44,045 nt of DNA from Solirubrobacterales bacterium (GCA_050697015.1 JBOGYZ010000326.1:1-44045); one strand, 5' to 3'. Positions 20,124-36,162 are shown, counted from the stretch's first letter. Numbers and translations: made by a program. Notes: generated by a model not told the origin, from the letters alone.

Positions 20124-20471
20124 CTAAGCCGCTGCCATCTCGCCAGTCGGCGAGTCGGACACATCTTCGCGAGACTCGACACTGCTGCGAACCATTTCGA
20201 GATCGGTCTCCCGCTCGATGATGGCGATCACTTCAGCAATGCGCTGGTGAATCTCGGCATCGGTGGTTCCCATGACGTTAAACCGCAGCTTGATCGAGCA
20301 CGTCGCCATGTTCAGCGCGACGACCGGACCGAGTGCCAGGTCGGAAGCGTGATCCTCGAGGGCATCGATGACATCGTCGGAGTTTGCGTCCAAGACCTCC
20401 TCCGACATCGGGTCGGCCATGTGCATCTCCAAGAGAACGTGGGCCTCGCGGTCCCGCTTGCTGCTCGCCAT
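20124..20471 (-). CDS. Small acidic hypothetical protein
   Basis: 115 aa, D/E-rich. The ATG is preceded by AAGGAG, which lies right after the stop of the upstream small gene (13-nt gap). Lower GC than the flanks. Confidence 0.55.
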   Translation of the reverse strand: MASSKRDREAHVLLEMHMADPMSEEVLDANSDDVIDALEDHASDLALGPVVALNMATCSIKLRFNVMGTTDAEIHQRIAEVIAIIERETDLEMVRSSVESREDVSDSPTGEMAAA

Positions 20472-20484
20472 CAGCTCCTTGACT

Positions 20485-20826
20485 TTACACGTCGAGCCCT
20501 GCGGCTCGCAGGGCAGCTTTGGTGTTTTCCAACGTCCGGCTACTACTGGGCGTCATTGGGATCTTGACCCTATCGCTGTCGGGATCGGGTGGGGAGACAT
20601 AGATGTACTTGCGACGCTTCTCACATTTCCAGCCAGCGGCCCACGCTGCCTTGACAAGGAGCCGGTAGTCCTTCTTCGGGTGATTTGGACAGTTTGCATC
20701 GGGGTTTTCGACCCGCCACGGGTGGGGTTCAGGAGGTTTTTTGACCTTCGATTTGGGCTTGGACATCAGGGGCTTCGATCCTTCCGTCCGGATGCCCTGC
20801 AAATCTGTTGCGAGAGAGAGCGACAT
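20485..20826 (-). CDS. Small basic protein with a HicA-like (YcfA/dsRBD-like) C-terminal layout
   Basis: 113 aa; the alternative start MSKPKSK at 20766 gives 93 aa. The N-terminus is Lys-rich. The C-terminal KDYRLLVKAAWAAGWKCEKRRKYIYVSPP..RVKIPMTP..TLENTKAALRAAGL mirrors the helix-strand-strand-helix order of HicA toxins but lacks the catalytic His. Confidence 0.45.
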   Translation of the reverse strand: MSLSLATDLQGIRTEGSKPLMSKPKSKVKKPPEPHPWRVENPDANCPNHPKKDYRLLVKAAWAAGWKCEKRRKYIYVSPPDPDSDRVKIPMTPSSSRTLENTKAALRAAGLDV

Positions 20827-20854
20827 CGACGGACTTCTTCATTATTCGATTTAC

Positions 20855-20882
20855 GAAAACCCGCCCGGCCAGGCGGGTTTTC
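20855..20882. terminator. Bidirectional intrinsic-terminator-like hairpin
   Basis: gaaaacccgcc-cggcca-ggcgggttttc: perfect 11-bp stem, 6-nt loop, with an A-tract before and a T-tract after on both strands. Confidence 0.6.
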
Positions 20883-21026
20883 TTGCTGTCGGGAAGCTAT
20901 TGGGCGAGGCGGACGGCTTTCGAGTAATGAATCGACCGAGTACTCGACAGAGATGTCGCTAAACCGAACGCGGAACCCGACCGCTGCCATGCGGCGCAAA
21001 TCCACTTCGCGCTCTCGGTCCTTTCC

Positions 21027-21050
21027 AAAAAAGCCGGTAGACGTACCGAC
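21027..21050 (-). terminator. Intrinsic terminator of ddl
   Basis: The minus-strand RNA GUCGGUA-CGUC-UACCGGC forms a 7-bp stem with one G-U pair, followed by UUUUUU. It starts 10 nt after the ddl stop. Confidence 0.7.
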
Positions 21051-21059
21051 CCGAGAGGC

Positions 21060-22025
21060 TCAGAACTCGTAGGAGCGGGCGCGCTGGTGGCGCTCGATCG
21101 CGAGGGTGACGAGGCGGTCGCAGAGGTCCGGGTAGGAGAGGCCGTCGGCCTCGAGGAGCTTCGCGTAGACGCTCGTCTCGGTGAAGCCGGGCATCGTGTT
21201 GATCTCGTTGACGAGCACCGTGCCGTCGGGCTCGACGAAGAAGTCGCAGCGGGCGAGGCCGGAGCAGCCGGCCAGGCGGAAGACCTCGGCGGCGAGCTCG
21301 CGCACGCGGGTCGTCTCGATCTCCGAGATCGGCGCCGGGACCGCCAGGTCCATGCCGCCCTCCGCGTACTTCGCCTCGTAGTCGTACCACTGGGCGTGGG
21401 CGAGGATCTCCCCTGGCATCGACGTCCGCGGGTCCTCGTTGCCGAGCACCGAGCACTCGATCTCGCGGCCATGGGCGGAGGCCTCGACGATCACCCGCGG
21501 GTCGTGCCGCAGTGCCGTCTCGATCGCCGCGTCGAGCGCGGTGAGATCCTCGATCCGGGTGATGCCGACGCTCGAGCCCATCCGCGAGGGCTTCACCCAG
21601 AGCGGCGTGTCAAGCTCGGCGCAGCGCTCCCGCCAGCCCTCCTCGCCGACCTCGACGAAGTCCACCTGTGGGATCCCCTGCCCCGCCAGGATCCGCTTCA
21701 GCGTGAGCTTGTCCAGGCAGGTCGCCGAGGCCAGCACGTCGGAGCCGACGTAGGGCAGGTCGAGCATCTCCAGCAGGCCCTGCATGCTGCCGTCCTCGCC
21801 GAAGGGGCCGTGGAGGACGGGGAAGACGACGTCGGCGCCGAGCAAGCCGCCACCGGGGACCAGCTCCACCGCCGCGCCCGCGGCGCTCCAGCGCCCGTCA
21901 CGGCCGATCCGCACCTCGACCACCTCATGCCCGCCTTCCTCCAGGCCTTTCATCACCGACGCGCCGGAGTTGAGCGAGACCTCGTGCTCGGAGGAGCGGC
22001 CGCCGCTCAGCACCGCCACCCTCAC
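21060..22025 (-). CDS. ddl: D-alanine--D-alanine ligase
   Basis: 321 aa from GTG 22025, in a GTGA overlap with the pknB stop. Motifs: VAVLSGGRSSEHEVSL, FPVLHGPFGEDGSMQGLLE, LWVKPSRMGSSVG, EINTMPGFT. The upstream 327 aa of the ORF are rejected. Confidence 0.95.
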   Translation of the reverse strand: MRVAVLSGGRSSEHEVSLNSGASVMKGLEEGGHEVVEVRIGRDGRWSAAGAAVELVPGGGLLGADVVFPVLHGPFGEDGSMQGLLEMLDLPYVGSDVLASATCLDKLTLKRILAGQGIPQVDFVEVGEEGWRERCAELDTPLWVKPSRMGSSVGITRIEDLTALDAAIETALRHDPRVIVEASAHGREIECSVLGNEDPRTSMPGEILAHAQWYDYEAKYAEGGMDLAVPAPISEIETTRVRELAAEVFRLAGCSGLARCDFFVEPDGTVLVNEINTMPGFTETSVYAKLLEADGLSYPDLCDRLVTLAIERHQRARSYEF

Positions 22026-23980: not shown

Positions 23981-25444
23981 TCATTCGCCGTTCAGGATCG
24001 TTTCGGCCACGTCGCGAAAGATCGGTGCGGCCACATCACCACCGAATTCTTCGGTGCAGGACACCGTCGCGGCGATCGCGATCTTCGGATTGTCGGCAGG
24101 CGCGAAGCCGACGAACCAGGCCTGGTTCTCCGCTTCGCCGCCGCCGCACTCCTTGTTGTTCGGCGTTTCCGCCGTGCCGGTCTTGCCCGCCACCGGAACA
24201 CCGGAGATCGCGGCGTTGGTCCCGGTGCCTTCGTCGACCACGCCTTCCATCGCCGTGGTCAGCTCTTCCGCCGTCTTGGACGAGATCGGTTCGCCGTAGA
24301 CGCTCGGGCTCATCTTCTTGGTGACGCTTCCGTCGACGTTCACCACGCGGCTCCAGATCTGCGGCTTCATCAACTTCCCGTGGTTGGCGACGGCGGCGAC
24401 CACCATCGCCATCTGCAGCGGCGTCACCGCGAGGCGCTCCTGGCCGATCGCCACGCGCGCCAGGTCGACCGGGTCGTTACGGGTCAGGAGTTCGTTCTTT
24501 TCGAGATCGAGGACGCCGCTCGCCGAGAGTTCATCTTCGGGCAGGTCGATCGGCGGCTTCGTGTTGAAGCCGAACTTTTCCATCATCGAGAAGAGCTTGT
24601 TCTGGCCGACTTTCTGGCCCAGCTGCCCGAACCAGGTGTTGACCGAGTTGGTCAGCGCGGTATCGAGGGAGATGCTGCCCCAGTCTTGATCGAAGTCGTT
24701 GGCGAGAACGTGGCCTTCGTCGATGATCGAGCCCGGCGCGTTGATCGTCGTTTCCGGCGTGATCAACCCGGATTCCAGCCCCGCCGCCGCGGTCACGACC
24801 TTGAAGGTGGAGCCGGGCGGGAAAGTGGCCTGGGTCGCACGGCTGAAAAGCGGCGTCCGGACTTCCTGTTCGTTCCACTTTTCGAGGTTCTTCGGGATCG
24901 CGTTCGGGTTGAAGCCCGGATTCGCCGCCACCACCTTGACCTTGCCGGTGCTCGGTTCGATCGCCACCACAGCGCCGTAGCCTGCGCTTTCGAGGTCGTG
25001 CATCGCCACTTCCTGCGCCTTCGGATCGAGGCTCGTGACGATCTGTTCGCCTTCCTGCTTCTTCCCGCTCAACTGATCGATGATCGTCCCGAATTCCGAT
25101 TCTTCGCCGGTCAGTTCCTCGTTGTGGTACTTCTCGAACTCGGTCTGCCCGTATTTCACGTAGCTGTAGCCGATCGGATGGCCGAAGAGCGAGCCCATCG
25201 GATAACGGCGGATGAAGCGCCTGCCGGTTCCATGGCCCTTGGAGTAGGACTTCGCGATCACCGACCCGTCGTCGGCCAAGATCCGCCCACGCGGGATCTG
25301 CTGCTGCTCCAACAGCGGCCGCTGGTTGTATTTCTGTTCCTTCAACGCCTTGGCGTCGAAGACCGACCACCAGGACGTGAAGCCGATCAGGATCGCGAAG
25401 AGGACGATGATGAAGCCGAAGAGCTTGATGATCTGGCGGTTCAC
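23981..25444 (-). CDS. pbpA: Class B penicillin-binding protein (transpeptidase)
   Basis: 487 aa with an N-terminal TM. Motifs: STFK (PGSTFKVVTAA), SxN (TNSVNTWF), KTGT (AGKTGTAE). Confidence 0.95.
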   Translation of the reverse strand: MNRQIIKLFGFIIVLFAILIGFTSWWSVFDAKALKEQKYNQRPLLEQQQIPRGRILADDGSVIAKSYSKGHGTGRRFIRRYPMGSLFGHPIGYSYVKYGQTEFEKYHNEELTGEESEFGTIIDQLSGKKQEGEQIVTSLDPKAQEVAMHDLESAGYGAVVAIEPSTGKVKVVAANPGFNPNAIPKNLEKWNEQEVRTPLFSRATQATFPPGSTFKVVTAAAGLESGLITPETTINAPGSIIDEGHVLANDFDQDWGSISLDTALTNSVNTWFGQLGQKVGQNKLFSMMEKFGFNTKPPIDLPEDELSASGVLDLEKNELLTRNDPVDLARVAIGQERLAVTPLQMAMVVAAVANHGKLMKPQIWSRVVNVDGSVTKKMSPSVYGEPISSKTAEELTTAMEGVVDEGTGTNAAISGVPVAGKTGTAETPNNKECGGGEAENQAWFVGFAPADNPKIAIAATVSCTEEFGGDVAAPIFRDVAETILNGE

Positions 25445-26784
25445 GACAGCGCCCCCAGCGGTTCAGAGCGTTCGTTGTTCGTCGCGCCCTCTTCGGCTTC
25501 GCGCCTGGCGCGGTCGGAGACCAGCAGCAGCAGCGCCAGGAGGACGAAGTTGGCGACGATCGAGCTGCCGCCGTAGGAGACGAAGGGCAGGGTGACGCCG
25601 GTCAGCGGGATCACCCGGGTGACGCCGCCGATGATCACGAAGGCCTGGATCGCGAAGACCGCCGTAAGGCCGGTCGCCAGCAGCTTCGAGAACCCATCGT
25701 TGGCCAGCAGCGCGACCTTGAACCCGCGGGCGGTGATCAGCAAATAGGTGGCGATCAGGCCGCAGGCGCCGAAGAGGCCGAGCTCGTTGACGATCAGCGA
25801 GTAGATCGTGTCGGTCTGCGCCGCAGGCAGCAGCGTCGCCTTGGTGCCTGGAATCGTGATCAGCCCCTGGCCGAAGCCTTTCCCGAAGAGCCCGCCGTCG
25901 GCCTGGGCGAAGATCGACTGCAGGATCTGGTAGCCAGTGCCCTGCGGGTCGCTGTAGGGATGGAGCCAGATCTCGACCCGGTCGTGGACGTGCGGGACGG
26001 TGGTGACGATGAACCAGGCACCGACCAGGAAGAGCAGCGACCCGATCACGACGAAGCTGAAGCGGCCGGTCGCCACGTAGAGCAGGGCGAGGAAGGCGGC
26101 GAAGAACATCAGCGAGCTGCCGAGGTCTCGGATGAAGACGAGCAACAGCATCGTCGCGCCCCAGACCACCAGCATCGGCCCGAAGTGTTTGATCGGCGGC
26201 AGGGTCACGCCGAGCACCCGCCGCGCGCCGACGATCAGCACCTCGCGGTTCTCCCGCAGGTAGGAGGCGAGGAAGACGACGATCGCGAGCTTCGCGAACT
26301 CGGCCGGCTGGAAGGAGATCGGGCCCACCTTCACCCCGAGATAAGCCCCGTTGACCTGTTCCCCGATCCCCGGCAGGCGCGGCGCCAGCAAGAGCAGGAT
26401 GCCGACCGTGGCGATGATGTAGCGGTAGCGCTCCAGCACCTCGTAATCGCGCAGGAACTGGATCGTCAGGGCGAAGAGGACGAGGCCGAAGACGAACCAG
26501 TTGGCCTGGTTCCGGGCCAGGCTTTCGTCGATCCGGTAGATCATCACCAGCCCGAACGCGGTCAGCACCGCCATCAGCGGGAAGAGGTACGGGTCGGCGT
26601 GCGGCAGGCGGATCCGCAGGTAGATGTGGGTCGCCAGGCAGAGGGCGAAGAAATAGGCGCCGTAGGTGAGGCTGAGGTTGCCGAGCTTCGAGTTCTCCTG
26701 GGCGAAGACCGCGGCGAATCCGGCCGTCAGCAGGAGCGCCACGGGGATGAGGGCGAGCATCTCGCGGTTGCGGGCGCGGGTCAT
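25441..26784 (-). CDS. rodA: SEDS family peptidoglycan glycosyltransferase (FtsW/RodA)
   Basis: 447 aa, polytopic. Motifs: FQPAEFAKLAIV, SDPQGTGYQILQS, PAAQTDTIYS, PFVSYGGSS. It has 4-nt overlaps with both pstP and pbpA. Confidence 0.95.
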   Translation of the reverse strand: MTRARNREMLALIPVALLLTAGFAAVFAQENSKLGNLSLTYGAYFFALCLATHIYLRIRLPHADPYLFPLMAVLTAFGLVMIYRIDESLARNQANWFVFGLVLFALTIQFLRDYEVLERYRYIIATVGILLLLAPRLPGIGEQVNGAYLGVKVGPISFQPAEFAKLAIVVFLASYLRENREVLIVGARRVLGVTLPPIKHFGPMLVVWGATMLLLVFIRDLGSSLMFFAAFLALLYVATGRFSFVVIGSLLFLVGAWFIVTTVPHVHDRVEIWLHPYSDPQGTGYQILQSIFAQADGGLFGKGFGQGLITIPGTKATLLPAAQTDTIYSLIVNELGLFGACGLIATYLLITARGFKVALLANDGFSKLLATGLTAVFAIQAFVIIGGVTRVIPLTGVTLPFVSYGGSSIVANFVLLALLLLVSDRARREAEEGATNNERSEPLGALS

Positions 26785-28037
26785 CCGCCGGCCTTTTCTT
26801 CAATCCCGGTCGCCGGTTCCGAGGTCGTCGTCGCTTCCGTGACCCCCTGGCCGCGTTCGATTTCTTCCAGCAGCTTCACCGCGTCATCGCGCGAGCGCAC
26901 GCTCTGGCCGGTCACCGCGTCCTTGCGTTTTTCGGGCAGCGATTCGGTCTGGACCGGGGACGAATGCTCCTCCGTGTAGAGCTTGACGCCGAAGGGGAGC
27001 TCGTAGGGGACGCCGCGGTAGAGGGTGACGCGACCGGCTTCGTCGGTGCCGAGGAACCAAGTGTGGTGGAGGCCGTAGGTGGCGCCGAAGACGATCGCCC
27101 CGATCACGACCAGCAGGGCGAGGACCCCGGCGACTCGTTTCATGATCTTCCGCCGCCGGCCCGGGCGACGGGACGCGTCGGCTGCCTCGCGTCGTTGCCG
27201 CGAGGCGTCGGCGGCGGCGCGGCGGCGCACCTCGGTCGCGGTCAGCCCCGCGTCGGTGGCGCTCGAGCCGATCAGCGTCGCGCCCTCCGCCGTCCCCGCG
27301 TCGAGGCCCGGTTCGGCCGCGTCGACGACCTTGAAGGCGATCACGCTGATGTTGTCGCGGCCGCCCGCCCGGTTGGCTTCGTCGACCAGGGCGCGGACCG
27401 CGTTCGGCATCGAGGTGGCGCGGGTGAGCAGGCGCTCGACATGCTCGTCGTCGAGCATCGTGGTCAGCCCGTCGGAGCAGAGCAGGAAGATGTCCCCCGC
27501 CTGCGCCGGCACCGTCTGCAGGTCGACCTCAACCTCCGGTTCGGGCCCGACCGAGCGGGTGATGATCGAGCGCTGCGGGTGGTCCTCGGCCTGCGCCTCG
27601 GTCAGCTGCCCTTTGCGCCGCATCTCCTCGACCAGCGAGTGATCGCGGGTGAGCCGTTCCAGCTTGCCCCGCCGGAGGCGATAGGCGCGGCTGTCGCCGA
27701 CGTGGCCGATCGCCACCTCGTCGGAGCTCTCGTCGAGGATCGCCGCGGTGGTCGTCGTCCCCATCCCGGACAGGTTCGGGTCTTTGTTGGCGAGCGAGTA
27801 GACGGTGCGGTTGGCGCCTTCGATCGTCTCCTTCAGAACCCGCTCCGGCGGCGCCTCGGGGAGCGGGCGGTCGAAGGCGTCGACGACGGTCTTCGAGGCG
27901 ACCTCGCCGGCGCGCGCCCCGCCCATCCCGTCGGCGATGACGAAGAGCGGCGCGCGGACGAAGACCGAGTCCTCGTTGGCGCTGCGCTGGCGCCCGGTGT
28001 CAGTGGCGTAGGCCTGATCGGTGATCCGCAGCGTCAT
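26781..28037 (-). CDS. pstP: PP2C-family Ser/Thr phosphatase with TM segment and ectodomain
   Basis: 418 aa. Motifs: TDTGRQRSANEDS, ADGMGGARAGEVAS, LLCSDGL, GGRDNISV. A TM segment (VAGVLALLVVIGAIVFG) follows. Confidence 0.95.
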   Translation of the reverse strand: MTLRITDQAYATDTGRQRSANEDSVFVRAPLFVIADGMGGARAGEVASKTVVDAFDRPLPEAPPERVLKETIEGANRTVYSLANKDPNLSGMGTTTTAAILDESSDEVAIGHVGDSRAYRLRRGKLERLTRDHSLVEEMRRKGQLTEAQAEDHPQRSIITRSVGPEPEVEVDLQTVPAQAGDIFLLCSDGLTTMLDDEHVERLLTRATSMPNAVRALVDEANRAGGRDNISVIAFKVVDAAEPGLDAGTAEGATLIGSSATDAGLTATEVRRRAAADASRQRREAADASRRPGRRRKIMKRVAGVLALLVVIGAIVFGATYGLHHTWFLGTDEAGRVTLYRGVPYELPFGVKLYTEEHSSPVQTESLPEKRKDAVTGQSVRSRDDAVKLLEEIERGQGVTEATTTSEPATGIEEKAGG

Positions 28038-28059
28038 CTCTCCACTAACCCGCCCACCG

Positions 28060-28530
28060 TCAGGAAGCCTCGAACCTGAAGACCGTGTCGCCGATCTGGA
28101 TCGTGTCGCCGTCGACCAGCTCCGCCTCGCCGTTCAGCGCCGCCCCGTTCAGCGTGGTGCCGTTGGTCGAGTTCATGTCCTCGACGTAGTGGCGTCCTTC
28201 GCGGGAGAACGATCGCGCGTGGATGCCGGAGGCATAGCGGTCATCGATCTGCACGTCGGCCTCCTTGGAGCGGCCGATCGAGAGGCCGCCGATCAGGTCG
28301 AAGCGCTCGTCCCGGGTCAGCCCGCCACCGCGCTCGGCGATCAGCCAAGCGTCGTTGCCCCGCTGCACCTCGGCGCCGCCGACCGCGGCGTGGAAGCCGG
28401 TCGCGTCAGGCGCGGGCGCCGCCGTCCGCCGCAGGTCCCGAAACGCGCTCCGCGCGATCACCAGCAGGAACAGGAAAAGGACGGCCAGGAAGCCGAATTT
28501 CAGCGCGGTTGAAAGGGGGTCGTAGGCCAC
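28060..28530 (-). CDS. fhaB: FHA-domain membrane protein (FhaB/FipA-like)
   Basis: 156 aa with an N-terminal TM. The C-terminal FHA domain shows GRSKEADVQIDDRYASGIHARF.., STNGTTLNG. Confidence 0.85.
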   Translation of the reverse strand: MAYDPLSTALKFGFLAVLFLFLLVIARSAFRDLRRTAAPAPDATGFHAAVGGAEVQRGNDAWLIAERGGGLTRDERFDLIGGLSIGRSKEADVQIDDRYASGIHARSFSREGRHYVEDMNSTNGTTLNGAALNGEAELVDGDTIQIGDTVFRFEAS

Positions 28531-28585
28531 TCGTTCAGCACCTTACGGTCCGGGCCTGAAGCTAGACAGGCCGCACGTGGTCGAT

Positions 28586-29362
28586 CTACTGCTCGATGTC
28601 GAACAGGAAGGTGGTGGTGCCGATCGTCACCTGGTCGCCCGGGTTGAGGCGGGTTGAGGTGACGCGACGGCCGTTCACCTTGATCCCGTTGGTCGAGCCG
28701 AGGTCGACGATCTGCCAGTCCCCCGCCTCGGAACGGCGCAGCTCGGCGTGGCGACGGGACACGTTGGGGTCGGCGAGCACGCACTCGGCCGATTTCGAGC
28801 GGCCGATCGTGGCGCGCGGGCCGTCGAAGACATAGCGGCGGTCGTCGAGCGAGACGACGGCGCGGGTGGAGACCAGCGCGCGGACGTCCTGCTCCGGTTC
28901 TTTGGGCCGCTGACGGTCGCGCTCGCGGACCGCCGAGTAGACCATCGTGTGGCCCTCTTCGCCCTGGCGGGGCGCCTCGCCCTCGCGGACCGGCGCCTTC
29001 ACCATCCGCGGCTGGATCCCGAACTCACCGAGGCGCAGGCGCTCGTCGGTCTGGAACTCGACCGCGGGCCGGGTCAGCAGGTCGTAGCCGCGCCGACGGG
29101 CGTGCTCGAGCAGGTACCCGGACAGCTCCTGCTCCAGCGAGCGCTCGTAGCCTTCGAGCTTCGAGCGGTCCTGGCGGGAGAGGAAGACGGTGTACTCGTT
29201 GGGGACGTAGACGCGCTGGACCGAGGCGGTCTTGTGCGCGTCCATTTCCTTGGCCAATTTGCGGGCCAGTTCGACCGGCTGGACCTCGGAGCTGAAGGCG
29301 CGCGAGAACACGCCCTCGACGAGGCCTTCGATCCCGGACTCCAGTTTGCGCAGAATGGCTAT
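28586..29362 (-). CDS. fhaA: FhaA-like protein (DUF3662 N-domain + C-terminal FHA)
   Basis: The FHA domain is at the C-terminus (IGRSKSAECVLADPNVSRRHAEL, STNGIKVNG). The conserved N-terminus (A)ILRKLESGIEGLVEGVFSRAFSSEVQPVE extends 17 codons upstream of the first canonical start (GTG 29311). I place the start at ATA 29362, 9 nt after AAAGGAA. Confidence 0.8.
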   Translation of the reverse strand: MAILRKLESGIEGLVEGVFSRAFSSEVQPVELARKLAKEMDAHKTASVQRVYVPNEYTVFLSRQDRSKLEGYERSLEQELSGYLLEHARRRGYDLLTRPAVEFQTDERLRLGEFGIQPRMVKAPVREGEAPRQGEEGHTMVYSAVRERDRQRPKEPEQDVRALVSTRAVVSLDDRRYVFDGPRATIGRSKSAECVLADPNVSRRHAELRRSEAGDWQIVDLGSTNGIKVNGRRVTSTRLNPGDQVTIGTTTFLFDIEQ

Positions 29363-29423
29363 AGGAACGGTTCCTTTGTCATGGCAGGGTCAAATCTCCG
29401 CCTCTGCCGAGGAGTCGGAAAGT

Positions 29424-30338
29424 TTAGGGAAGGACGAGCCCATGGCCGAGCACGACGATCGCGCCGATGGCGGCGGCGATCCCGAGCACGCCGAGTCGAA
29501 GGCCGACGCGGCGCGGGGCGCTCGGGGCGTGATCGGCGAGCTCGTCGAGCGATTCCTCGATCGTCATGCCCAGGTCCTCCAGCGAGGGACGGTGGCCGGG
29601 GCGCGGGTCGAGGCAGGCATCGATCTCCTCAGCGAGCTCCCGCGGCAGGTCGGGGCGCAGGCGGCGCAGCGGACGGGCGCGGCGGCCGATCGAGCGCGCG
29701 GTCGCGACGGCGTTGCCGCGCCGGTGCGGGTTCTCGCCGCTCCAGCACTCGTACAGCGTGAGGGCGAGCGAGTAGACGTCGGCCTCCGGGCCCGCCTCCC
29801 GGCCCTCGGCCTGCTCCGGGGCCATGTAGGCGAGCGTGCCGACGACGTCGCCGGTCTGGGTCAGACCCGCCGCGTCGGCGACCAGGGCGATGCCGAAGTC
29901 CATCAGCTTCGCCCGCGGCTGGCCGTCGACGATCTGGACGTTCTGCGGCTTGATGTCGCGGTGGATGACGCCGCGCGAGTGGGCGTGGTCGAGCGCTTCG
30001 CAGAGGTCGGCGCCGATCTCGCCGATCTCGCGGTCGGAGAGGGCGCCCTCGGTGGCCAGGCGGGCGAGCGTGTCGCCCTCGACCAGCTCGGAGACGAGCA
30101 GCGCGTTGCCGTTCTCCTCCCCCATCTCGTACAGGGTCACGATGCCCGGGTGGTTGAGGCGGGCGGCGGCCTGGGCCTCGCGCATGACCCGCTTTCCGGC
30201 CTCACCCCGCTGCTCGATCGCCTTCACCGCGACGGCGCGCTCGAGCCTGCCGTCCCAGGCCTCGTAGACCACGCCGAAGCCGCCGCTGCCGATGCGGCGC
30301 TCGATCAGGAAGCGATCAAGTACGAGTGAGCCGACCAA
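29424..30338 (-). CDS. Hanks-type Ser/Thr protein kinase, tail-anchored, no ectodomain
   Basis: Motifs: GSGGFGVVY, VAVKAI, IHRDIKPQNVQI, MDFGIA, GTLAYMAPEQ. The extreme C-terminus is a TM segment (LGVLGIAAAIGAIVVLG). Start placed at TTG 30338; the upstream 38 codons read as noncoding. Confidence 0.8.
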   Translation of the reverse strand: MVGSLVLDRFLIERRIGSGGFGVVYEAWDGRLERAVAVKAIEQRGEAGKRVMREAQAAARLNHPGIVTLYEMGEENGNALLVSELVEGDTLARLATEGALSDREIGEIGADLCEALDHAHSRGVIHRDIKPQNVQIVDGQPRAKLMDFGIALVADAAGLTQTGDVVGTLAYMAPEQAEGREAGPEADVYSLALTLYECWSGENPHRRGNAVATARSIGRRARPLRRLRPDLPRELAEEIDACLDPRPGHRPSLEDLGMTIEESLDELADHAPSAPRRVGLRLGVLGIAAAIGAIVVLGHGLVLP

Positions 30339-30357
30339 AGCAAGTTGACCTTCGCCG

Positions 30358-30395
30358 GCCGGTTCCTGCCTCCTGCCCGCGCCGGTTCCTCCTCC
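30358..30395. repeat. Direct repeat GCCGGTTCCT(G)CCTCC x2 in a divergent intergenic region
   Basis: Copies lie at 30358-30373 and 30381-30395 (one indel), 23 nt apart, just upstream of the minus-strand kinase start. Confidence 0.5.
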
Positions 30396-30584
30396 CCGGC
30401 TATCGTTGGGAAAAAGGCACCGTACGCGGGAAGAAACGGCGGCTGCGCGCAATCAGTCGCCATACTCCCGCGCCAGCCGAATCCAGCCCCGTGGGAGAGC
30501 CGCCACTTGGAGTACTCGTCTTCACGCGGTGAGGGCCGACGACAGCGTCGGCCCAGCCGCCGTCCCGAACGCCAGCAGCAGATC

Positions 30585-32434: not shown

Positions 32435-32944
32435 ATGGCCAGGGTGCTGGTGCTCAATGCGACGTATGAGCCGATCAACGTCTGTACTTTGCGACGCGCC
32501 GCCGTGCTGCTCCTGAAGGAAAAGGCGGAGCTGCTCGAGCAACGGAATGGCGACGTCCTCCACTCCGAGCACATGACCCTCGAGCGCCCCGACGTGATCC
32601 GCCTCGTCAACTACGTCCGCATCCCCCGCGAGGCCCACCGCCGCAAGATCACCCGCCGCGCCGTCCTCGCCCGCGACTCCTGGACCTGCCAGTACTGCGG
32701 CTCCACCAAATCCGGCCTCACCGTCGACCACGTCATCCCCCGCTCCCGCGGCGGCGCCTCCACCTGGGACAACATCGTCGCCGCCTGCGCCACCTGCAAC
32801 CGCAAAAAGGGCAACCGCCTCCCCCGCGAGATCCACATGCATCCCAAGAACGCCCCCAAGCCCCCCGCCCCGACGGTCTTCATCCAGGTCGCGAGTCCGA
32901 AGATTCCGGCGAACTGGCAGCAGTACTTACCTCAGGCGGCGTAG
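32435..32944 (+). CDS. HNH endonuclease family protein
   Basis: 169 aa from ATG 32435. Motifs: CQYCGS..LTVDHVIPRSRGG..WDNIVAACATCNRKKGN. TACAAT lies 8 nt upstream of the ATG, so the transcript may be leaderless. GC is backbone-like. Confidence 0.85.
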   Translation: MARVLVLNATYEPINVCTLRRAAVLLLKEKAELLEQRNGDVLHSEHMTLERPDVIRLVNYVRIPREAHRRKITRRAVLARDSWTCQYCGSTKSGLTVDHVIPRSRGGASTWDNIVAACATCNRKKGNRLPREIHMHPKNAPKPPAPTVFIQVASPKIPANWQQYLPQAA

Positions 32945-33081
32945 CGGCGGACCTCTCGGGGGTTGCCGGGGAAGGGGTTCTGACGCCGCCCTGCCGACCG
33001 AGACTCTTCGGATGGACCAAACAGCGTGATCCTTTAAGCACACCTAGGTCGTTCCGAATAGAGCTATGCTGCATCGCCGAG

Positions 33082-33930
33082 TTGGCCAGAACACTGAGAG
33101 CAGGGACAATCGACCAACAAGAGCTTCAAGAGGCGCTGCCGCCCAACGTTGCGCTCGGGTCAAAGATTCACGACGGCGGTCAGCGCAAGGTCTACCGCGC
33201 AAAACGCGAGGGGGTGGATGTAGTCCTCAAGGTGATGCCGATCGATGCCGTGGAGCGGGCAGAACGCGAGGTTTCGATCGGCTGCACCTTCGATCATCCA
33301 AACCTGGCCCGAATCCTGGATGACGAGCTCAGCCAGCTCACCGTTGGTGAGGATGATTTCGTTTGGTTTTGCGAGGAATACATAGACGGAGAGGTCTTGG
33401 CCAGCAGAGTAGGTGTCTACGAGCCTTGCGAGGCTCTCGATCTTGCCTCTGACCTGATCGAGGCCGTTGCCTATTTATGGGAGCGGCATGATGTGGTCCA
33501 CCGGGACATCAAGCCTCTCAACATCATCCGGCGATCTTCAGGGGGCTATGTGCTCATCGATGTCGGTATTGGTCGGCACCAGGGCGATCCCTCGATCACT
33601 TCTGGCGCCCTAGGCCCCGGGACCATCGGCTATCTGGCTGCTGAGCAATACATACCGAACAAAGGTCGGATGCTCGACTCACGCACTGATCTGTTCCTAA
33701 TCGGGATAGTCGTCTTTCAGGTGCTGACTGATGTTCTTCCATTTCGCCCAAACGACCCCGACTATTACGCCAAGCTGTTAAGCGGGGATTGGCCTCGGCC
33801 CCAAGGTCTGCCGGCGCCCATATCCGAGCTCTTGGAGAGGTTTCTTGGAAGGAATCCACATCAGCGTCCGCCGATAGCGCAAGCGGCAGGAATGATCCTA
33901 GGAGCAAAGGAGGAACTTGGATGCTCTTAG
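33082..33930 (+). CDS. Stand-alone Hanks-type protein kinase domain protein (atypical)
   Basis: 282 aa with a TTG start. Motifs: VVLKV (Lys), ERAEREV (Glu), VVHRDIKPLNII, DVG in place of DFG, GTIGYLAAEQ, HQRP. The Gly-rich loop is degenerate (GSKIHDGGQRKVY). There is no TM or sensor domain. Sampled GC is ~50-65%. Confidence 0.75.
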   Translation: MARTLRAGTIDQQELQEALPPNVALGSKIHDGGQRKVYRAKREGVDVVLKVMPIDAVERAEREVSIGCTFDHPNLARILDDELSQLTVGEDDFVWFCEEYIDGEVLASRVGVYEPCEALDLASDLIEAVAYLWERHDVVHRDIKPLNIIRRSSGGYVLIDVGIGRHQGDPSITSGALGPGTIGYLAAEQYIPNKGRMLDSRTDLFLIGIVVFQVLTDVLPFRPNDPDYYAKLLSGDWPRPQGLPAPISELLERFLGRNPHQRPPIAQAAGMILGAKEELGCS

Positions 33931-35108
33931 TTCAGGACGGCCACCATGCTTCCGGGCACATATCCGAGGCGTTAACGGACGGCTACGCAGATGGAGCGAT
34001 CTGGAGTCCGGCTGACGAGACGCCCGACCTCCTTCGCGAGAGGGTGGGCAACGCTGCAGCCGGTGGCGTCACTCAAGCGATCGATCCGCAGCTGTATATG
34101 GCTCTGCTCGAAGACGCCAATCCAAAGAAGCATTTAAGCCATGGCCTTTTCGACATTCCTCTCCGGCAGTTCGGGTCGAAACGACTCGCGGCCATGGTCG
34201 AGCGGGTGATCGAATTTCAAGCGGCCCTACCGGTCACCCATCTACTGTCTCCCACCGTCGCAGTTTCGGCTGTGAATCATCGCTCGGCACAGATCGCCGT
34301 GAACCTTGCGGAGACCTCGCTCGAAGTCGCTGCTGACCTAGCAGACGGCAGACCACTGTTGGTGAGCGCTGCACTGGATCGGGACATTCTGGCCGACTCC
34401 GAAGCGGTGAATGCGATGCTCGACGAGCTAACTAGCTACCGCGCGGACGGCTTCTACCTCCTATTTGAGATCGACCCCGGTATGGACGGCGTGCGGCAAG
34501 CTGCGCTCCTCGGGGAAGCCCTGTATGTGGTTCACATACTTTCGTCTGTGCAGGGTCTTCCTGTGTGGGTTGGTTACGCCGGGGTCCAAGGGTACTTACA
34601 CCGCGCCGTCGGAGCGGAAGCCTTTGGCGCCGGTTGGTTCCAGAAGCAGCAGTGGTGGAGCACGTCGCACTGGAGCGGTTCTAAAGGAGGGGGCGGCAGA
34701 CCGCCGAGAAATCGCCTCTACCTTGACACTCTTCTTGGAAGCCTCCTGATCGAGCCAGAGTTCGCGAGTATCTACTCGCAGAGACGGGATGTGAGCTTGG
34801 CTTCCGACCTCTTGACGGGAGCCGGTGTCCTAGCTGCGAGCTTCCGCTCTTCGGCTCCAGCGGATCCAGGGCGTAGCCCATGCGCCGCACAACTCCTGCA
34901 AATTTGCCGAGACCTCGACCGACGTATCACGGGAGACCTACGCGCCGACTTGGATCGGATTGATGCTGACCTTGCGGGAGCTGAGCAGTTATACCGACGA
35001 ATAGAGGACGTAGGAGTACAACTCCACGGACGAAGCTCCGCCGCACAACTCAGCGTATGGCGGGCCGCAGTTGATGCCTTTTGCATACGAGCTGGCGTGA
35101 ACCGCTAG
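33921..35108 (+). CDS. Hypothetical 395-aa protein, predicted alternating beta/alpha (barrel-like) fold plus helical C-terminus
   Basis: The ATG is preceded by AAGGAGG and overlaps the kinase stop by 10 nt. I recognise no family motif. Eight short hydrophobic strands alternate with amphipathic helices (see findings). Confidence 0.7.
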   Translation: MLLVQDGHHASGHISEALTDGYADGAIWSPADETPDLLRERVGNAAAGGVTQAIDPQLYMALLEDANPKKHLSHGLFDIPLRQFGSKRLAAMVERVIEFQAALPVTHLLSPTVAVSAVNHRSAQIAVNLAETSLEVAADLADGRPLLVSAALDRDILADSEAVNAMLDELTSYRADGFYLLFEIDPGMDGVRQAALLGEALYVVHILSSVQGLPVWVGYAGVQGYLHRAVGAEAFGAGWFQKQQWWSTSHWSGSKGGGGRPPRNRLYLDTLLGSLLIEPEFASIYSQRRDVSLASDLLTGAGVLAASFRSSAPADPGRSPCAAQLLQICRDLDRRITGDLRADLDRIDADLAGAEQLYRRIEDVGVQLHGRSSAAQLSVWRAAVDAFCIRAGVNR

Positions 35109-35117
35109 CCACCAGAA

Positions 35118-36044
35118 TTAGGTGGACACGAGTGTGGATTGCGTGCGACCGTGGGCGATGGGGCGAAGCTCACTCGACATTCTAGCTTTCGATCTCTCTG
35201 CGGACCACCGAACGAATAGGTGCTCTTCCAGTATGAGCCTCTGAAGTGTACGGCCGACCCGGAAGCGGGGCTGTCTCACGATGCGGAGTCCATCAGACCC
35301 AACGACCGCAATTCCGACGCCGCGCAGGGACGGATTCTGGCGAGGCACACGAGGCAGGTAGTTCTCGGGAAACACCAACCAGCCACCGTTGAGAAATGGT
35401 GCAGACATCTGTACTTGCCTGGCCGCTGATTTCCACCGCCCCGTCTTGGCCTCCACGCCCACGCCGCGTGCTCCCGCCGGGAGGAACGCTGTGCTGAGCA
35501 CGAAGTCCGCTTCATCTCGGAACCCGATACCTCGCTCCACGAGCTCCGCGACCGCCCTCCTTACCCGACGTCTGTCGCCTATCCCTACCTGCGGTGAGCA
35601 CAGCCTGTCTAACGACGCCCCGCCTCCAAGCCGCCGCACGGCGGCGGCAACGGCCAACGGCAGCGGAGCGGTACACGGCGCTATTCCGCTGTCGAGACGA
35701 CGCTGGAGTACGTCGGAATTGAACGACCCCACCCAAAGGTCCAACCGAGAGTCGAATAGCTCAAACTCCGGGATCACCACGACTGAATCACACTTAGGCG
35801 GGGCTAGAAGCGCGGGGGATAAGGCCGCCGCCTCGTGCAGAGGCGCCTCTTTCGTCGGAACTCCGCGTTGCCCGATTGCGTAAGTTCGAGGCTCGAGATA
35901 GGTAGCCGAAAACCCCATGGCCCTACCGTAGCGCCTGCGCCCACCGGCCAGCACAGCGGACCGAATTATCGCGAGGGCTCCTTGGTCAACGAGCGATTCA
36001 CTGCCCTGGGGGGAGCCGGGTAGGTCCCGACTGAGCCTCCACAA
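35118..36044 (-). CDS. Hypothetical protein with wHTH-like segment and PD-(D/E)xK-like C-terminal core
   Basis: 308 aa from TTG 36044, or 266 aa from ATG 35918. ..DEADFVLS..GVGVEAKTGRWKSAARQVQ.. fits a D..ExK..Q nuclease motif. The preceding LAVAAAVRRLGGGASLDRL..RRVRRAVAELVERG looks winged-helix-like. Lower GC than gyrA. Confidence 0.5.
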   Translation of the reverse strand: MWRLSRDLPGSPQGSESLVDQGALAIIRSAVLAGGRRRYGRAMGFSATYLEPRTYAIGQRGVPTKEAPLHEAAALSPALLAPPKCDSVVVIPEFELFDSRLDLWVGSFNSDVLQRRLDSGIAPCTAPLPLAVAAAVRRLGGGASLDRLCSPQVGIGDRRRVRRAVAELVERGIGFRDEADFVLSTAFLPAGARGVGVEAKTGRWKSAARQVQMSAPFLNGGWLVFPENYLPRVPRQNPSLRGVGIAVVGSDGLRIVRQPRFRVGRTLQRLILEEHLFVRWSAERSKARMSSELRPIAHGRTQSTLVST

Positions 36045-36162
36045 CTCGCTTGCGGGTTCCTCGCGCCGTCAGGCGCGATCTTCATTCCTCCGACCGTAAG
36101 GGAGGAGGTGCGCGAAGGCGGGGCCTACCCGGCTCCCCCGCCCTCGCTACGTCCTGTTCGAG

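What the first reader, a model, noticed from the sequence alone, without database searches (positions are those of the whole stretch)
32945..36162. Low-GC three-gene island (stand-alone kinase + orphan 395-aa protein + convergent nuclease-like protein) wedged between an HNH gene and gyrA
Seen:
- The ~3.2 kb between the HNH stop (32944) and the gyrA stop (36163) is clearly less GC-rich than both flanks. Hand-counted 60-nt lines give 50-67% versus ~70-75%.
- It holds exactly three ORFs that read as real proteins.
- The first is a 282-aa kinase-domain-only Hanks kinase.
- The second is a 395-aa protein with a strong AAGGAGG SD, and its ATG overlaps the kinase stop by 10 nt, which implies translational coupling.
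- The third is a convergent 266-308-aa protein with a D..ExK..Q motif, ending 9 nt from the second gene.

Knowledge: the ori-proximal gyrBA neighbourhood is otherwise conserved housekeeping. Compact sensor/signalling enzyme plus effector modules of foreign composition are the typical architecture of phage-defence or conflict systems.

Inference: this could be a horizontally acquired kinase-controlled system that I cannot assign to any named defence family from memory. No integrase or clear att repeats are visible.
Basis: partly seen in the sequence, partly recalled or inferred. Interest (0 to 1): 0.8.

Follow-up and report, generated by a model that had tools for sequence, protein, structure and literature searches.

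The report
Mobile kinase, TIM-barrel, nuclease gene trio
A 3-kb piece of foreign DNA next to gyrA carries three genes (a protein kinase, an uncharacterised barrel-shaped enzyme and a DNA-binding nuclease) that travel together in bacteria and archaea, often beside restriction systems, which makes them a good candidate for an undescribed anti-phage or anti-plasmid system, though no function has been tested.

Summary
Window 32946 to about 36010 carries three intact genes:
- A: Hanks Ser/Thr kinase, 33082-33930 (+).
- B: 395-aa protein, 33921-35108 (+), whose ATG overlaps the stop of A by 10 nt.
- C: convergent protein, 35118-35918 (-), 266 aa rather than 308.

The genes are foreign. Their GC3 is 0.63-0.67 against 0.84-0.94 for backbone genes, and the closest relative (L022) has HNH directly next to gyrA.

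The three genes form one unit. A, B and C lie together in 32 of the 33 related loci fetched; the exception is a 1.3-kb contig holding only B. These loci come from Thermoleophilia, Chloroflexota, Bacillus and Polaromonas plasmids and a haloarchaeal plasmid. A always sits directly before B. The three proteins diverge in step (r about 0.9).

- A keeps every catalytic kinase residue.
- B is a confidently modelled TIM barrel from an unannotated family (808 clusters, no Pfam, NCBIfam or PADLOC model). Its closest folds are tRNA-guanine transglycosylases, but the match is weak and there is no sequence support.
- C is a PD-(D/E)xK nuclease with an inserted winged helix and a conserved E..D..ExK..Q motif.

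Neighbours often include restriction-modification systems, McrBC, GmrSD, Shedu, SIR2, transposases, integrases and conjugation genes.

Best reading: an undescribed mobile three-component conflict or defence module. The function and mechanism are inferred, not shown. The PD-T4-6 hit is non-specific.

The parts
32945..33081 (+). Left junction and upstream region of the kinase gene. The promoter was not identified.
   Evidence: Synteny with L022-L026 ends at window 32944-32947, the HNH stop. No sigma-70-like site was found. There is no conserved upstream sequence among the cassettes.
33082..33930 (+). Gene A: stand-alone Hanks-type Ser/Thr protein kinase, 282 aa. The TTG start is uncertain by a few codons.
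   Evidence: Pkinase PF00069 E=1.7e-24, above the curated cut-off. K50, E63, H140-R141-D142, N147, D160, G180-T181, D203 and R262 are invariant, P187-E188 are nearly invariant (window has A187), and activation-loop T173 is invariant, across 12 orthologues from bacteria and an archaeon. The best PDB sequence matches are the PknB, StkP and PknA kinase domains. GC3 is 0.625.
33907..33913 (+). Shine-Dalgarno AAGGAGG for gene B, lying inside the 3' end of gene A.
   Evidence: Read directly from the sequence, 7 nt before ATG 33921.
33921..35108 (+). Gene B: 395-aa TIM-barrel protein with a C-terminal helical bundle, from an unannotated family. It overlaps the stop of A by 10 nt.
   Evidence: AF2 model: pLDDT 89.8, pTM 0.92, alternating strand/helix pattern. 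Best PDB folds are tRNA-guanine transglycosylases: E about 2e-5, TM 0.45-0.52. No Pfam hit for any of 56 members. 808 clusters at 50% identity match the profile. Deep invariants are Q5, G25, D55, P111, G177, Y179, L207 and G218. GC3 is 0.631.
35118..35918 (-). Gene C: 266-aa PD-(D/E)xK nuclease-fold protein with a winged-helix domain inserted between the D and ExK strands. It is convergent with B, with 9 nt between the two stop codons.
   Evidence: The start is fixed by alignment with 9 homologues. AF2 model: pLDDT 85.5. Top PDB fold hit is 3dnx (DUF1052, a recognised PD-(D/E)XK structure; PMC3424549), E=1.9e-4, followed by MarR/IclR winged helices. E24, E51, R58, D60 and E156 are invariant, and K158, W162 and Q168 nearly so, out to an archaeal homologue. 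GC3 is 0.670.
35919..36010 (-). Upstream region of gene C and the approximate right edge of the inserted DNA.
   Evidence: There is no similarity to L022 to the left of about 36020. A GGTAGG-like ribosome-binding site before the ATG recurs in the homologous cassettes.
36009..36139 (.). Backbone, not cargo. A 24-nt inverted repeat (36009-36032 / 36116-36139) encloses the hairpin 36061-36078, just downstream of the gyrA stop. It is probably the gyrA terminator and marks the right boundary.
   Evidence: Inverted repeat I1 is 92% complementary. A terminator-like hairpin was found. The CGCCGTCAGGCGCG and GGCCTACCCG blocks are conserved in the empty-site relative L022.

Best explanation
The segment is a horizontally transferred, self-contained three-gene conflict module. 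It most likely defends against phages or plasmids.

Shown:
- A is a catalytically intact Ser/Thr protein kinase.
- B is an enzyme-like TIM barrel from an undescribed family.
- C is a DNA-binding (winged-helix) PD-(D/E)xK nuclease with an intact active-site motif.
- The three genes are inherited and transferred as one unit across bacterial phyla and into archaea.
- A is always immediately upstream of B and is often translationally coupled to it.

Inferred:
- A and B are made in fixed proportion and act as a complex.
- The kinase is the switch. It has no sensor domain of its own, so B or C would supply recognition. It would autophosphorylate on the invariant activation-loop Thr173 and phosphorylate B, C or host or invader proteins.
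- C is the DNA-targeting effector.
- B contributes a second enzymatic activity on a phosphorylated or nucleic-acid ligand. This could be N-glycosidic chemistry, as in its nearest fold neighbours, the transglycosylases.

My confidence that it is a functional mobile triad is about 0.9. My confidence that its role is defence or conflict is about 0.55. My confidence in the specific division of labour is about 0.3. The single confidence value given (0.5) refers to the statement as a defence or conflict module.
For: Foreign origin:
- GC3 is 0.63-0.67 against 0.84-0.94 for the backbone.
- The empty site in L022 has break points at 32945 and about 36020.

Unit character:
- A, B and C are adjacent in all 20 Thermoleophilia loci with enough flank.
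- They are also adjacent around distant B homologues in L027, Chloroflexota L029/L030 and L031-L033.
- The same holds for the haloarchaeal plasmid CP095393.1 and for Bacillus mycoides, B. bombysepticus and Polaromonas plasmids.
- Identities of A, B and C to the window proteins co-vary, r=0.90-0.92 over 12 loci.

Active sites are conserved: kinase, C. For B the only deep-invariant acidic residue is D55, which lies just after a predicted strand.

Mobile or defence context:
- L001: Mrr, AAA_13, Shedu SduA_C, Eco57I methylase, XhoI and a DUF3427 helicase.
- L004: a type I restriction-modification system plus IS481.
- L005: SIR2_2 plus an ISL3 transposase.
- L007: GmrSD. PIN domains (4) and integrases (2) occur among the neighbours of 7 loci scanned together.
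- L028: an MmeI-type restriction-modification enzyme.
- L040: McrBC.
- L035: conjugation genes.
- L038: recombinase and integrase genes.

Decay in some copies, as expected for accessory cargo: C is frameshifted in L003, B carries an internal deletion in L021 and B is split in L040.
Against: - No experiment exists, and no characterised homologue of B or C.
- About half the contexts are plain housekeeping neighbourhoods (L002, L008, L017, L019, L021, L029).
- Defence-gene neighbours were not tested for enrichment against a background.
- Nothing was found in phage or viral collections, which is neutral.
- The similarity of B to transglycosylases is only at fold level (TM about 0.5). Generic TIM barrels follow closely in the ranking, and hhalign against E. 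coli Tgt gives 0.13% probability.
- Only one acidic residue of B (D55) is invariant across the deep family, so B could be a ligand-binding or scaffold subunit rather than an enzyme.
- An A-B complex and phosphorylation of B or C are pure inference.
Confidence: 0.5

Rival explanations
1. A base-modification and restriction pair with a kinase regulator. B would be a DpdA/TGT-like enzyme that exchanges or removes a base in host DNA. C would cut DNA lacking the mark. The kinase would tune the balance between the two.
For: - The top PDB fold hits of B are tRNA-guanine transglycosylases, aligned over the full length.
- Phage proteins named 'queuine tRNA-ribosyltransferase' appear among the BFVD hits.
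- In the window B and C are convergent, with C presumably on its own promoter, as in many restriction-modification pairs.
- C has an intact nuclease motif plus a winged helix.
- TGT homologues do serve restriction-like Dpd systems (PMC12839542).
Against: - No member matches the Pfam TGT model, even at E<=10.
- hhalign against E. coli Tgt gives 0.13% probability.
- The family has no conserved Cys/His cluster of the kind that forms the zinc site of TGT (my own knowledge of TGT): the only conserved Cys or His residues are the nearly invariant H8, H107, H250 and C329.
- Only one Asp is invariant.
- No preQ0 or queuosine synthesis genes and no DpdB/DpdC lie nearby.
- In many loci all three genes are co-directional and overlapping.
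Confidence: 0.15
2. An addiction or stabilisation (toxin-antitoxin-like) cassette. It would keep plasmids, conjugative elements and islands in the cell, with the kinase or the nuclease as toxin and a partner as its neutraliser. Any phage defence would be a side effect.
For: - Copies lie on plasmids of Natribaculum, Bacillus and Polaromonas.
- One copy lies next to conjugation genes. Others lie beside integrases, transposases and PIN toxins.
- The cassette is compact, carries no mobility gene of its own and is always inherited whole.
Against: - Three components of 266-395 aa, each enzyme-like, are unusual for toxin-antitoxin modules.
- There is no small labile antitoxin-like gene.
- Many copies are solitary chromosomal inserts that are not on an identifiable element.
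- Pseudogenised single components (L003 C, L021 B, L040 B) persist with the others intact. That would be lethal if the lost part were an antitoxin.
Confidence: 0.12
3. An ordinary accessory signalling or metabolic cassette unrelated to genetic conflict. B would be a small-molecule TIM-barrel enzyme, C a winged-helix transcription factor built on a nuclease-like scaffold, and A a kinase linking the two.
For: - The fold hits of B include PEP-mutase/isocitrate-lyase, glycosidase, DHODH and ribulose-phosphate barrels at similar E-values.
- Conserved glycines on or just after two late barrel strands (G218, G231, G238) resemble the standard phosphate-binding site of metabolic TIM barrels (my inference).
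- The middle domain of C matches MarR/IclR/CRP regulators.
- Several contexts are housekeeping.
Against: - The nuclease catalytic residues of C are conserved from Actinomycetota to Halobacteria, which is not expected for a mere scaffold.
- No transporter or pathway genes co-occur consistently.
- The distribution is patchy and cross-domain, the composition is foreign, and copies are rare: 5 of 185,579 species genomes for the close family.
- Copies recur next to restriction systems.
Confidence: 0.15

Closest known systems
Single-gene Ser/Thr kinase defence systems (Stk2 of Staphylococcus; PD-T4-6 of E. coli)
   Same: Both have a Hanks-type Ser/Thr kinase with all catalytic residues intact, carried on mobile DNA or defence islands. 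PADLOC PD-T4-6 models match A at E=1.9e-30.
   Different: Those systems are single genes (my own knowledge). Here the kinase is a bare 280-aa catalytic domain that never occurs without B and C. The PD-T4-6 match is generic: the window's housekeeping kinase scores 2.7e-73.
Dpd 7-deazaguanine DNA modification/restriction system (DpdA, a TGT homologue, plus nucleases and helicases)
   Same: Both pair a TGT-shaped TIM barrel with a nuclease in a mobile island. TGTs are the best fold match of B. The role of DpdA is described in PMC12839542.
   Different: B has no sequence relationship to TGT or DpdA and no conserved Cys/His cluster like the TGT zinc site. There is no DpdB/DpdC and no preQ0 pathway. 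Dpd has no protein kinase.
TerY-P triad (vWA protein, PP2C phosphatase and Ser/Thr kinase; 'Gao_TerY')
   Same: Both are three-gene mobile modules built around a Hanks kinase. TerY-P is listed among defence systems (my own knowledge).
   Different: The triad has no vWA domain and no PP2C. The partners here are a TIM barrel and a PD-(D/E)xK nuclease. Only the archaeal copy adds a phosphoesterase, of the unrelated calcineurin-like type.
PD-(D/E)xK nucleases with an attached winged helix (many type II and type IV restriction enzymes; DUF1052 / PDB 3dnx)
   Same: C has the E..PD..ExK core, and its closest solved fold is 3dnx. It also carries a DNA-binding winged helix.
   Different: In C the winged helix is inserted between the second and third core strands rather than appended. 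C matches no Pfam nuclease family. It is tied to a kinase and a TIM barrel, not to a methyltransferase.
BREX type 2 / Pgl (PglW kinase) and MADS (Mad6 kinase)
   Same: These are defence systems that include a Ser/Thr kinase domain.
   Different: A scores 19.7 bits against a cut-off of 990 for PglW, and 61 bits against 460 for Mad6. None of the other BREX or MADS components is present.

Membership tests
Hanks-type (eukaryotic-like) Ser/Thr protein kinases, Pfam PF00069 | Profile match above the curated threshold | tested here: met
   87.1 bits against a cut-off of 31.7, E=1.7e-24, covering profile positions 5-257 of 263.
Hanks-type (eukaryotic-like) Ser/Thr protein kinases, Pfam PF00069 | Catalytic residues: beta3 Lys, alphaC Glu, HRDxKxxN, DFG Asp, GT..APE, alphaF Asp | tested here: met
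   K50, E63, H140-R141-D142, N147, D160 (as D-V/I/L/M-G), G180-T181 and D203 are invariant in 12 orthologues. K144 and P187-E188 are nearly invariant; the window protein has AAE at the APE position.
PD-T4-6 / Stk2-like single-gene kinase defence | Specific homology to the defence kinases beyond the generic kinase domain | tested here: not met
   A scores 104.6 bits on the best PD-T4-6 model. The window's housekeeping PknB-like kinase (29424-30452) scores 245 bits on the same models.
PD-T4-6 / Stk2-like single-gene kinase defence | Functions as a single gene | tested here: not met
   The kinase is flanked by B and C in 32 of the 33 related loci fetched; the exception is a 1.3-kb contig that holds only B.
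tRNA-guanine transglycosylase / DpdA family (PF01702) | Sequence-profile match to TGT | tested here: not met
   No Pfam hit at E<=10 for 56 members. hhalign of the deep B alignment against E. coli Tgt gives probability 0.13%. No PDB sequence hit.
tRNA-guanine transglycosylase / DpdA family (PF01702) | Zinc-binding Cys/His cluster and a pair of catalytic Asp residues | tested here: not met
   The conserved columns contain no Cys/His cluster: H8, H107, H250 and C329 are only nearly invariant. Only one Asp (D55) is invariant across the deep family. What the TGT site consists of is from my own knowledge.
tRNA-guanine transglycosylase / DpdA family (PF01702) | TGT-like three-dimensional fold | tested here: inconclusive
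   TGTs are the top six PDB hits, aligned over the full length, but TM is only 0.45-0.52 with rmsd 8-9 A. Unrelated TIM barrels follow within one order of magnitude in E-value.
PD-(D/E)xK nuclease superfamily | E..(P)D..(D/E)xK active-site motif on the conserved core | tested here: met
   E51, D60 and E156 are invariant and K158 is nearly invariant in 11 sequences, including Bacillota-distant and archaeal members. In the model D60 lies just before strand 61-65 and E156 within strand 151-157, with K158 directly after it.
PD-(D/E)xK nuclease superfamily | Fold match to a recognised member | tested here: met
   The best PDB hit is 3dnx: E=1.9e-4, probability 1.00, TM 0.43 on the target. 3dnx is listed as the PD-(D/E)XK family DUF1052 in PMC3424549 and PMC3045609. 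The match is modest.
Classical restriction-modification system | A DNA methyltransferase paired with the nuclease | tested here: not met
   None of the three proteins has a methyltransferase domain. The methylases seen nearby belong to separate neighbouring systems.
TerY-P triad | A vWA (TerY) protein and a PP2C phosphatase accompanying the kinase | tested here: not met
   B and C have no Pfam match. Their models are a TIM barrel and a nuclease with a winged helix.
BREX type 2 PglW / MADS Mad6 | NCBIfam equivalog score above the cut-off | tested here: not met
   PglW: 19.7 bits against 990. Mad6: 61.3 bits against 460.
Anti-phage defence system (generic) | Protection of a host against phage or plasmid | not testable with these tools
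   Only context evidence is available. Restriction or defence genes are adjacent in about 7 of 17 distinct contexts.

The most novel reading that the evidence does not exclude
The triad is a new, cross-domain (Bacteria and Archaea) immune system. Its signature component, B, would found a new class of effector or sensor enzyme: a TGT-shaped TIM barrel that exchanges or excises bases, or cleaves N-glycosidic bonds, in nucleic acids or nucleotides. A dedicated Hanks kinase would control it, and a winged-helix PD-(D/E)xK nuclease would work alongside it. That would make phosphorylation-gated base chemistry a new defence principle.
Probability: 0.12. Interest if true: 0.85.

Novelty: new variant of a known kind. 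Interest (0 to 1): 0.62.

Why it matters
- If the triad is a defence system, it adds a previously uncatalogued kinase-based system. It is absent from PADLOC v2, Pfam, NCBIfam and PHROGs.
- It would give a first functional handle on a family of about 800 protein clusters (B) that currently has no annotation.
- The obligate pairing of a minimal Hanks kinase with a TIM-barrel protein across bacterial phyla and into haloarchaea is an unusual and testable association.
- It could show how bare prokaryotic Ser/Thr kinases obtain their input and output specificity.
- Copies on plasmids of cultured Bacillus mycoides and Polaromonas naphthalenivorans make experiments feasible at once.

Tried and rejected
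- PD-T4-6 membership of the kinase. Rejected after a control: the housekeeping kinase in the same window scores much higher on the same models.
- TGT/DpdA membership of B. Rejected at sequence level and kept only as a weak fold resemblance.
- Sequence searches of B and C profiles against the PDB gave nothing meaningful.
- Viral contig scans for B and C and tblastn against phage genomes gave no hits, so there is no sign of a phage origin.
- A search for att-like direct repeats or terminal inverted repeats around the insert found only short, chance-level matches.
- Alignment of cassette flanks from 11 loci found no conserved ends. The means of transfer is unknown.
- A sigma-70 promoter scan found nothing.
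- Rfam found nothing anywhere in the window.
- The idea that the HNH-gyrA interval is a defence hotspot was dropped. The two genes there in L023-L026 have backbone-like GC3 and signal peptides and no PADLOC hit.
- Five full-text literature searches for a kinase/TIM-barrel/nuclease system found no description.

Full report
**1. The observation**

The interval between the HNH stop (32944) and the gyrA stop (36163) holds three real genes.
- A: 33082-33930 (+), 282 aa.
- B: 33921-35108 (+), 395 aa. AAGGAGG lies at 33907-33913. The ATG overlaps the TAG of A by 10 nt.
- C: on the minus strand, with its stop 9 nt from the stop of B. Alignment with homologues places the start of C at ATG 35918, so it is 266 aa and not the 308-aa TTG form.

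The other ORFs in the list are overlapping shadow frames typical of high-GC DNA.

The interval has GC 0.606 against 0.676 for the whole window. It is essentially the lowest stretch of its size: 0.9% of same-size windows are as low or lower.

Third-position GC separates it cleanly. The values are 0.625, 0.631 and 0.670 for A, B and C, against 0.84-0.94 for the flanking pheA, HNH, gyrA and other genes.

There is no tRNA, integrase or credible flanking repeat.

**2. It is an insertion**

The HNH protein is a highly conserved Solirubrobacterales backbone gene: 6805 homologues, the best 98% identical.

In the closest relative with usable flanks (L022, HNH 93% identical), HNH is followed directly by gyrA.
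- Nucleotide synteny with the window stops at 32945 and resumes inside gyrA.
- A finer alignment shows that window positions from about 36020 to 36162 are shared with L022. This stretch includes the hairpin CGCCGTCAGGCGCG and is probably the gyrA terminator.
- The cargo is therefore about 32946-36010.

Other relatives (L023-L026) carry two different genes in this interval. These have backbone-like GC3 (0.77-0.91) and signal peptides. The interval is variable, but I do not call it a defence hotspot.

**3. The three genes are one unit**

B has 66 close homologues (41-61% identity), all labelled hypothetical and all without a Pfam domain. C has 8 by word-seeded search.

I fetched contexts through encoding-contig look-ups, GTDB genomes and JGI metagenomes.
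- A, B and C lie together in every one of 20 loci with enough flank. The one exception, L018, is a 1.3-kb contig holding only B.
- The 10-nt overlap between A and B is conserved in this clade.
- C is convergent in all but one locus (L020).
- Identities of A, B and C to the window proteins co-vary across 12 distinct loci, r=0.90-0.92. The genes therefore diverge as a unit.

A profile search of 1.84 billion cluster representatives shows the B family is much larger: 808 clusters at E<=1e-3 and 177 at <=1e-30, nearly all about 390-400 aa. Sampled members are 'hypothetical' with no Pfam match, and one is from Chloroflexota.

Contexts of these distant members show the same trio.
- L027 (a 4.7-Mb genome), Chloroflexota L029/L030 and L031-L033 have a stand-alone Pkinase immediately before B, and a C homologue after it, either co-directional or convergent (hmmsearch).
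- tblastn against plasmids found further copies. These are in the haloarchaeon Natribaculum breve (CP095393.1), Bacillus mycoides (NZ_CP128131.1), B. bombysepticus (CP126687.1) and Polaromonas naphthalenivorans pPNAP03 (NC_008759.1). In all four the gene order is C-A-B.

In total, 32 of the 33 related loci fetched carry all three genes, and A directly precedes B wherever its position could be read. Some of these loci are duplicates of the same contig.

**4. What the proteins are**

A is a bona fide Hanks Ser/Thr protein kinase.
- It matches Pkinase at E=1.7e-24.
- Its best solved relatives are the PknB, StkP and PknA kinase domains.
- All catalytic residues, plus the activation-loop Thr173, are invariant from Actinomycetota to Halobacteria.
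- It has no extra domain.
- Its PADLOC PD-T4-6 hit is not informative. The window's own housekeeping kinase (29424-30452, in the FHA/PP2C/FtsW cluster) scores far better on the same models.

B gives a confident AlphaFold model (pLDDT 89.8, pTM 0.92). The alternating strands and helices are typical of a TIM barrel, followed by a beta-hairpin and a C-terminal helical bundle.
- Foldseek against the PDB ranks tRNA-guanine transglycosylases first, aligned over the full length (E about 2e-5). TM is only 0.45-0.52, and unrelated barrels follow closely.
- BFVD gives weak hits that include phage proteins named 'queuine tRNA-ribosyltransferase'.
- There is no sequence support: no Pfam hit for 56 members, hhalign against E. 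coli Tgt at 0.13% and no PDB sequence hit.
- Across the deep family the invariant residues are Q5, G25, D55 (motif DPQxY), P111, G177, Y179, L207 and G218. Y219, G231, G238 and W239 are nearly invariant.
- Most of these lie on or just after predicted strands. That placement fits a ligand pocket on the catalytic face of the barrel, but it does not identify the chemistry.

C gives a good model (pLDDT 85.5).
- Its top PDB match is 3dnx, E=1.9e-4. Two surveys of the superfamily list 3dnx as the PD-(D/E)XK family DUF1052.
- The next matches are MarR/IclR-type winged helices, for residues about 85-140.
- The motif E51..R58-x-D60..E156-x-K158..Q168 is conserved out to the archaeal and Bacillus copies.
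- C is therefore very probably an active, DNA-binding nuclease with a winged helix inserted between the core strands.

**5. Context**

The close family is rare: 5 of 185,579 species genomes, all uncultured Solirubrobacterales, Gaiellales or 'Actinomycetes'. In other loci, too, the trio has lower GC3 than its neighbours.

Neighbours by locus:

| Locus | Neighbouring genes |
|---|---|
| L001 | Mrr, AAA_13, Shedu SduA_C, Eco57I methylase, XhoI, DUF3427 helicase, HNH_2 |
| L004 | IS481 and a type I restriction-modification system |
| L005 | SIR2_2 and an ISL3 transposase |
| L003 | a DDE transposase |
| L027 | a Schlafen/AlbA_2 protein |
| L028 | an MmeI-type restriction-modification enzyme and a trailing metallophosphoesterase |
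| L040 | an AAA ATPase plus McrC |
| L035 | conjugation genes TcpC, TcpE and AAA_10 |
| L038 | recombinase and integrase genes |
| L007 | GmrSD |

Among the neighbours of seven loci scanned together (L007, L008, L011, L013, L017, L019 and L021) there were also four PIN domains and two integrases. In L021 the flank carries a tRNA-like sequence.

Several copies, like the window's, are solitary three-gene inserts among housekeeping genes. I found no conserved cassette ends, so the means of transfer is unknown. Some copies are decaying: C is frameshifted in L003, B carries an internal deletion in L021, and B is split in L040.

**6. Interpretation**

Shown:
- A mobile, foreign, tightly linked and co-diverging trio of an active kinase, an enzyme-like TIM barrel and an active-looking DNA nuclease.
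- It spreads across phyla and domains.
- It is frequently found beside restriction or defence genes and mobile-element genes.

Inferred:
- It is a conflict or defence module.
- The sensor-less kinase acts as a switch, in complex with its translationally coupled partner B.
- C attacks DNA.

Rivals are a DpdA-like modification/restriction pair, an addiction cassette and a non-conflict signalling cassette. None is excluded, and each is given with its test.

**7. Comparison with what is known**

The trio is not a member of PD-T4-6/Stk2 (generic hit, obligate partners), TerY-P (no vWA or PP2C), BREX/Pgl or MADS (scores far below the cut-offs), Dpd/TGT (no sequence or motif support) or classical restriction-modification (no methylase).

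B and C are absent from PADLOC v2, Pfam, NCBIfam and PHROGs. Five full-text literature searches found no description.

I rate it a new variant of a known kind: a kinase-containing mobile conflict system whose partner family B is entirely uncharacterised.

**8. Verdict**

Horizontal acquisition and system character are shown. The defence role and control by the kinase remain inference.
- Interest is 0.62. This is a solid, experimentally tractable candidate with an unusual cross-domain linkage between a kinase and a TIM barrel. It is one of many candidate systems and has no functional evidence yet.

Noticed in passing
window 32945-36162, compared with L022:3503-3924 and L023-L026:7511-9535: The HNH-gyrA interval varies among close Solirubrobacterales relatives. 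It is empty in L022. In L023-L026 it holds two co-directional genes of about 306-332 aa with signal peptides and backbone-like GC3 (0.77-0.91). These genes have no Pfam or PADLOC match.
   Followed up: partly
L024:9524-13321 and L026:9526-12687 (gyrA of relatives): gyrA in two relatives carries an intein (Intein_splicing, and LAGLIDADG_3 in L024), giving products of 1265 and 1053 aa. The window's gyrA (854 aa) has none.
   Followed up: no
window 20368-21072 (+): A 234-aa ORF with GC3 0.613 lies in a 1-kb bin of GC 0.591. It is the only other part of the window with composition as foreign as the triad. It has no Pfam match.
   Followed up: partly
window 36009-36139: A 24-nt inverted repeat (92% complementary, 83-nt spacer) encloses a GC-rich hairpin just downstream of the gyrA stop. 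Parts of it are conserved in L022, so it is backbone and probably the gyrA terminator.
   Followed up: partly
window 23981-30452 (- strand), compared with L023:1-4878: On the other side of pheA/HNH the backbone carries ORFs matching the conserved actinobacterial cluster seen in L023: PBP, FtsW/RodA, PP2C phosphatase, two FHA proteins and a PknB-like kinase (29424-30452). Only the kinase was checked directly. It served as the control kinase.
   Followed up: partly
L028:7204-7893 (Natribaculum breve plasmid CP095393.1): In the archaeal copy a calcineurin-like metallophosphoesterase (Metallophos_2, E=3.7e-27) follows B by 22 nt on the same strand. It could be a fourth component, such as a phosphatase opposing the kinase or an Mre11-like nuclease. 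It is absent from the bacterial copies.
   Followed up: partly
L013 and L021, 3' flank of the triad (about L021:11540-11800): In L021 the sequence beyond gene C contains a tRNA-like 3' end (GGATTCGAACCTGCGACC on the opposite strand). The homologous L013 flank, as extracted, breaks off just before it. This suggests insertion next to a tRNA gene. ARAGORN was not run on these loci.
   Followed up: no
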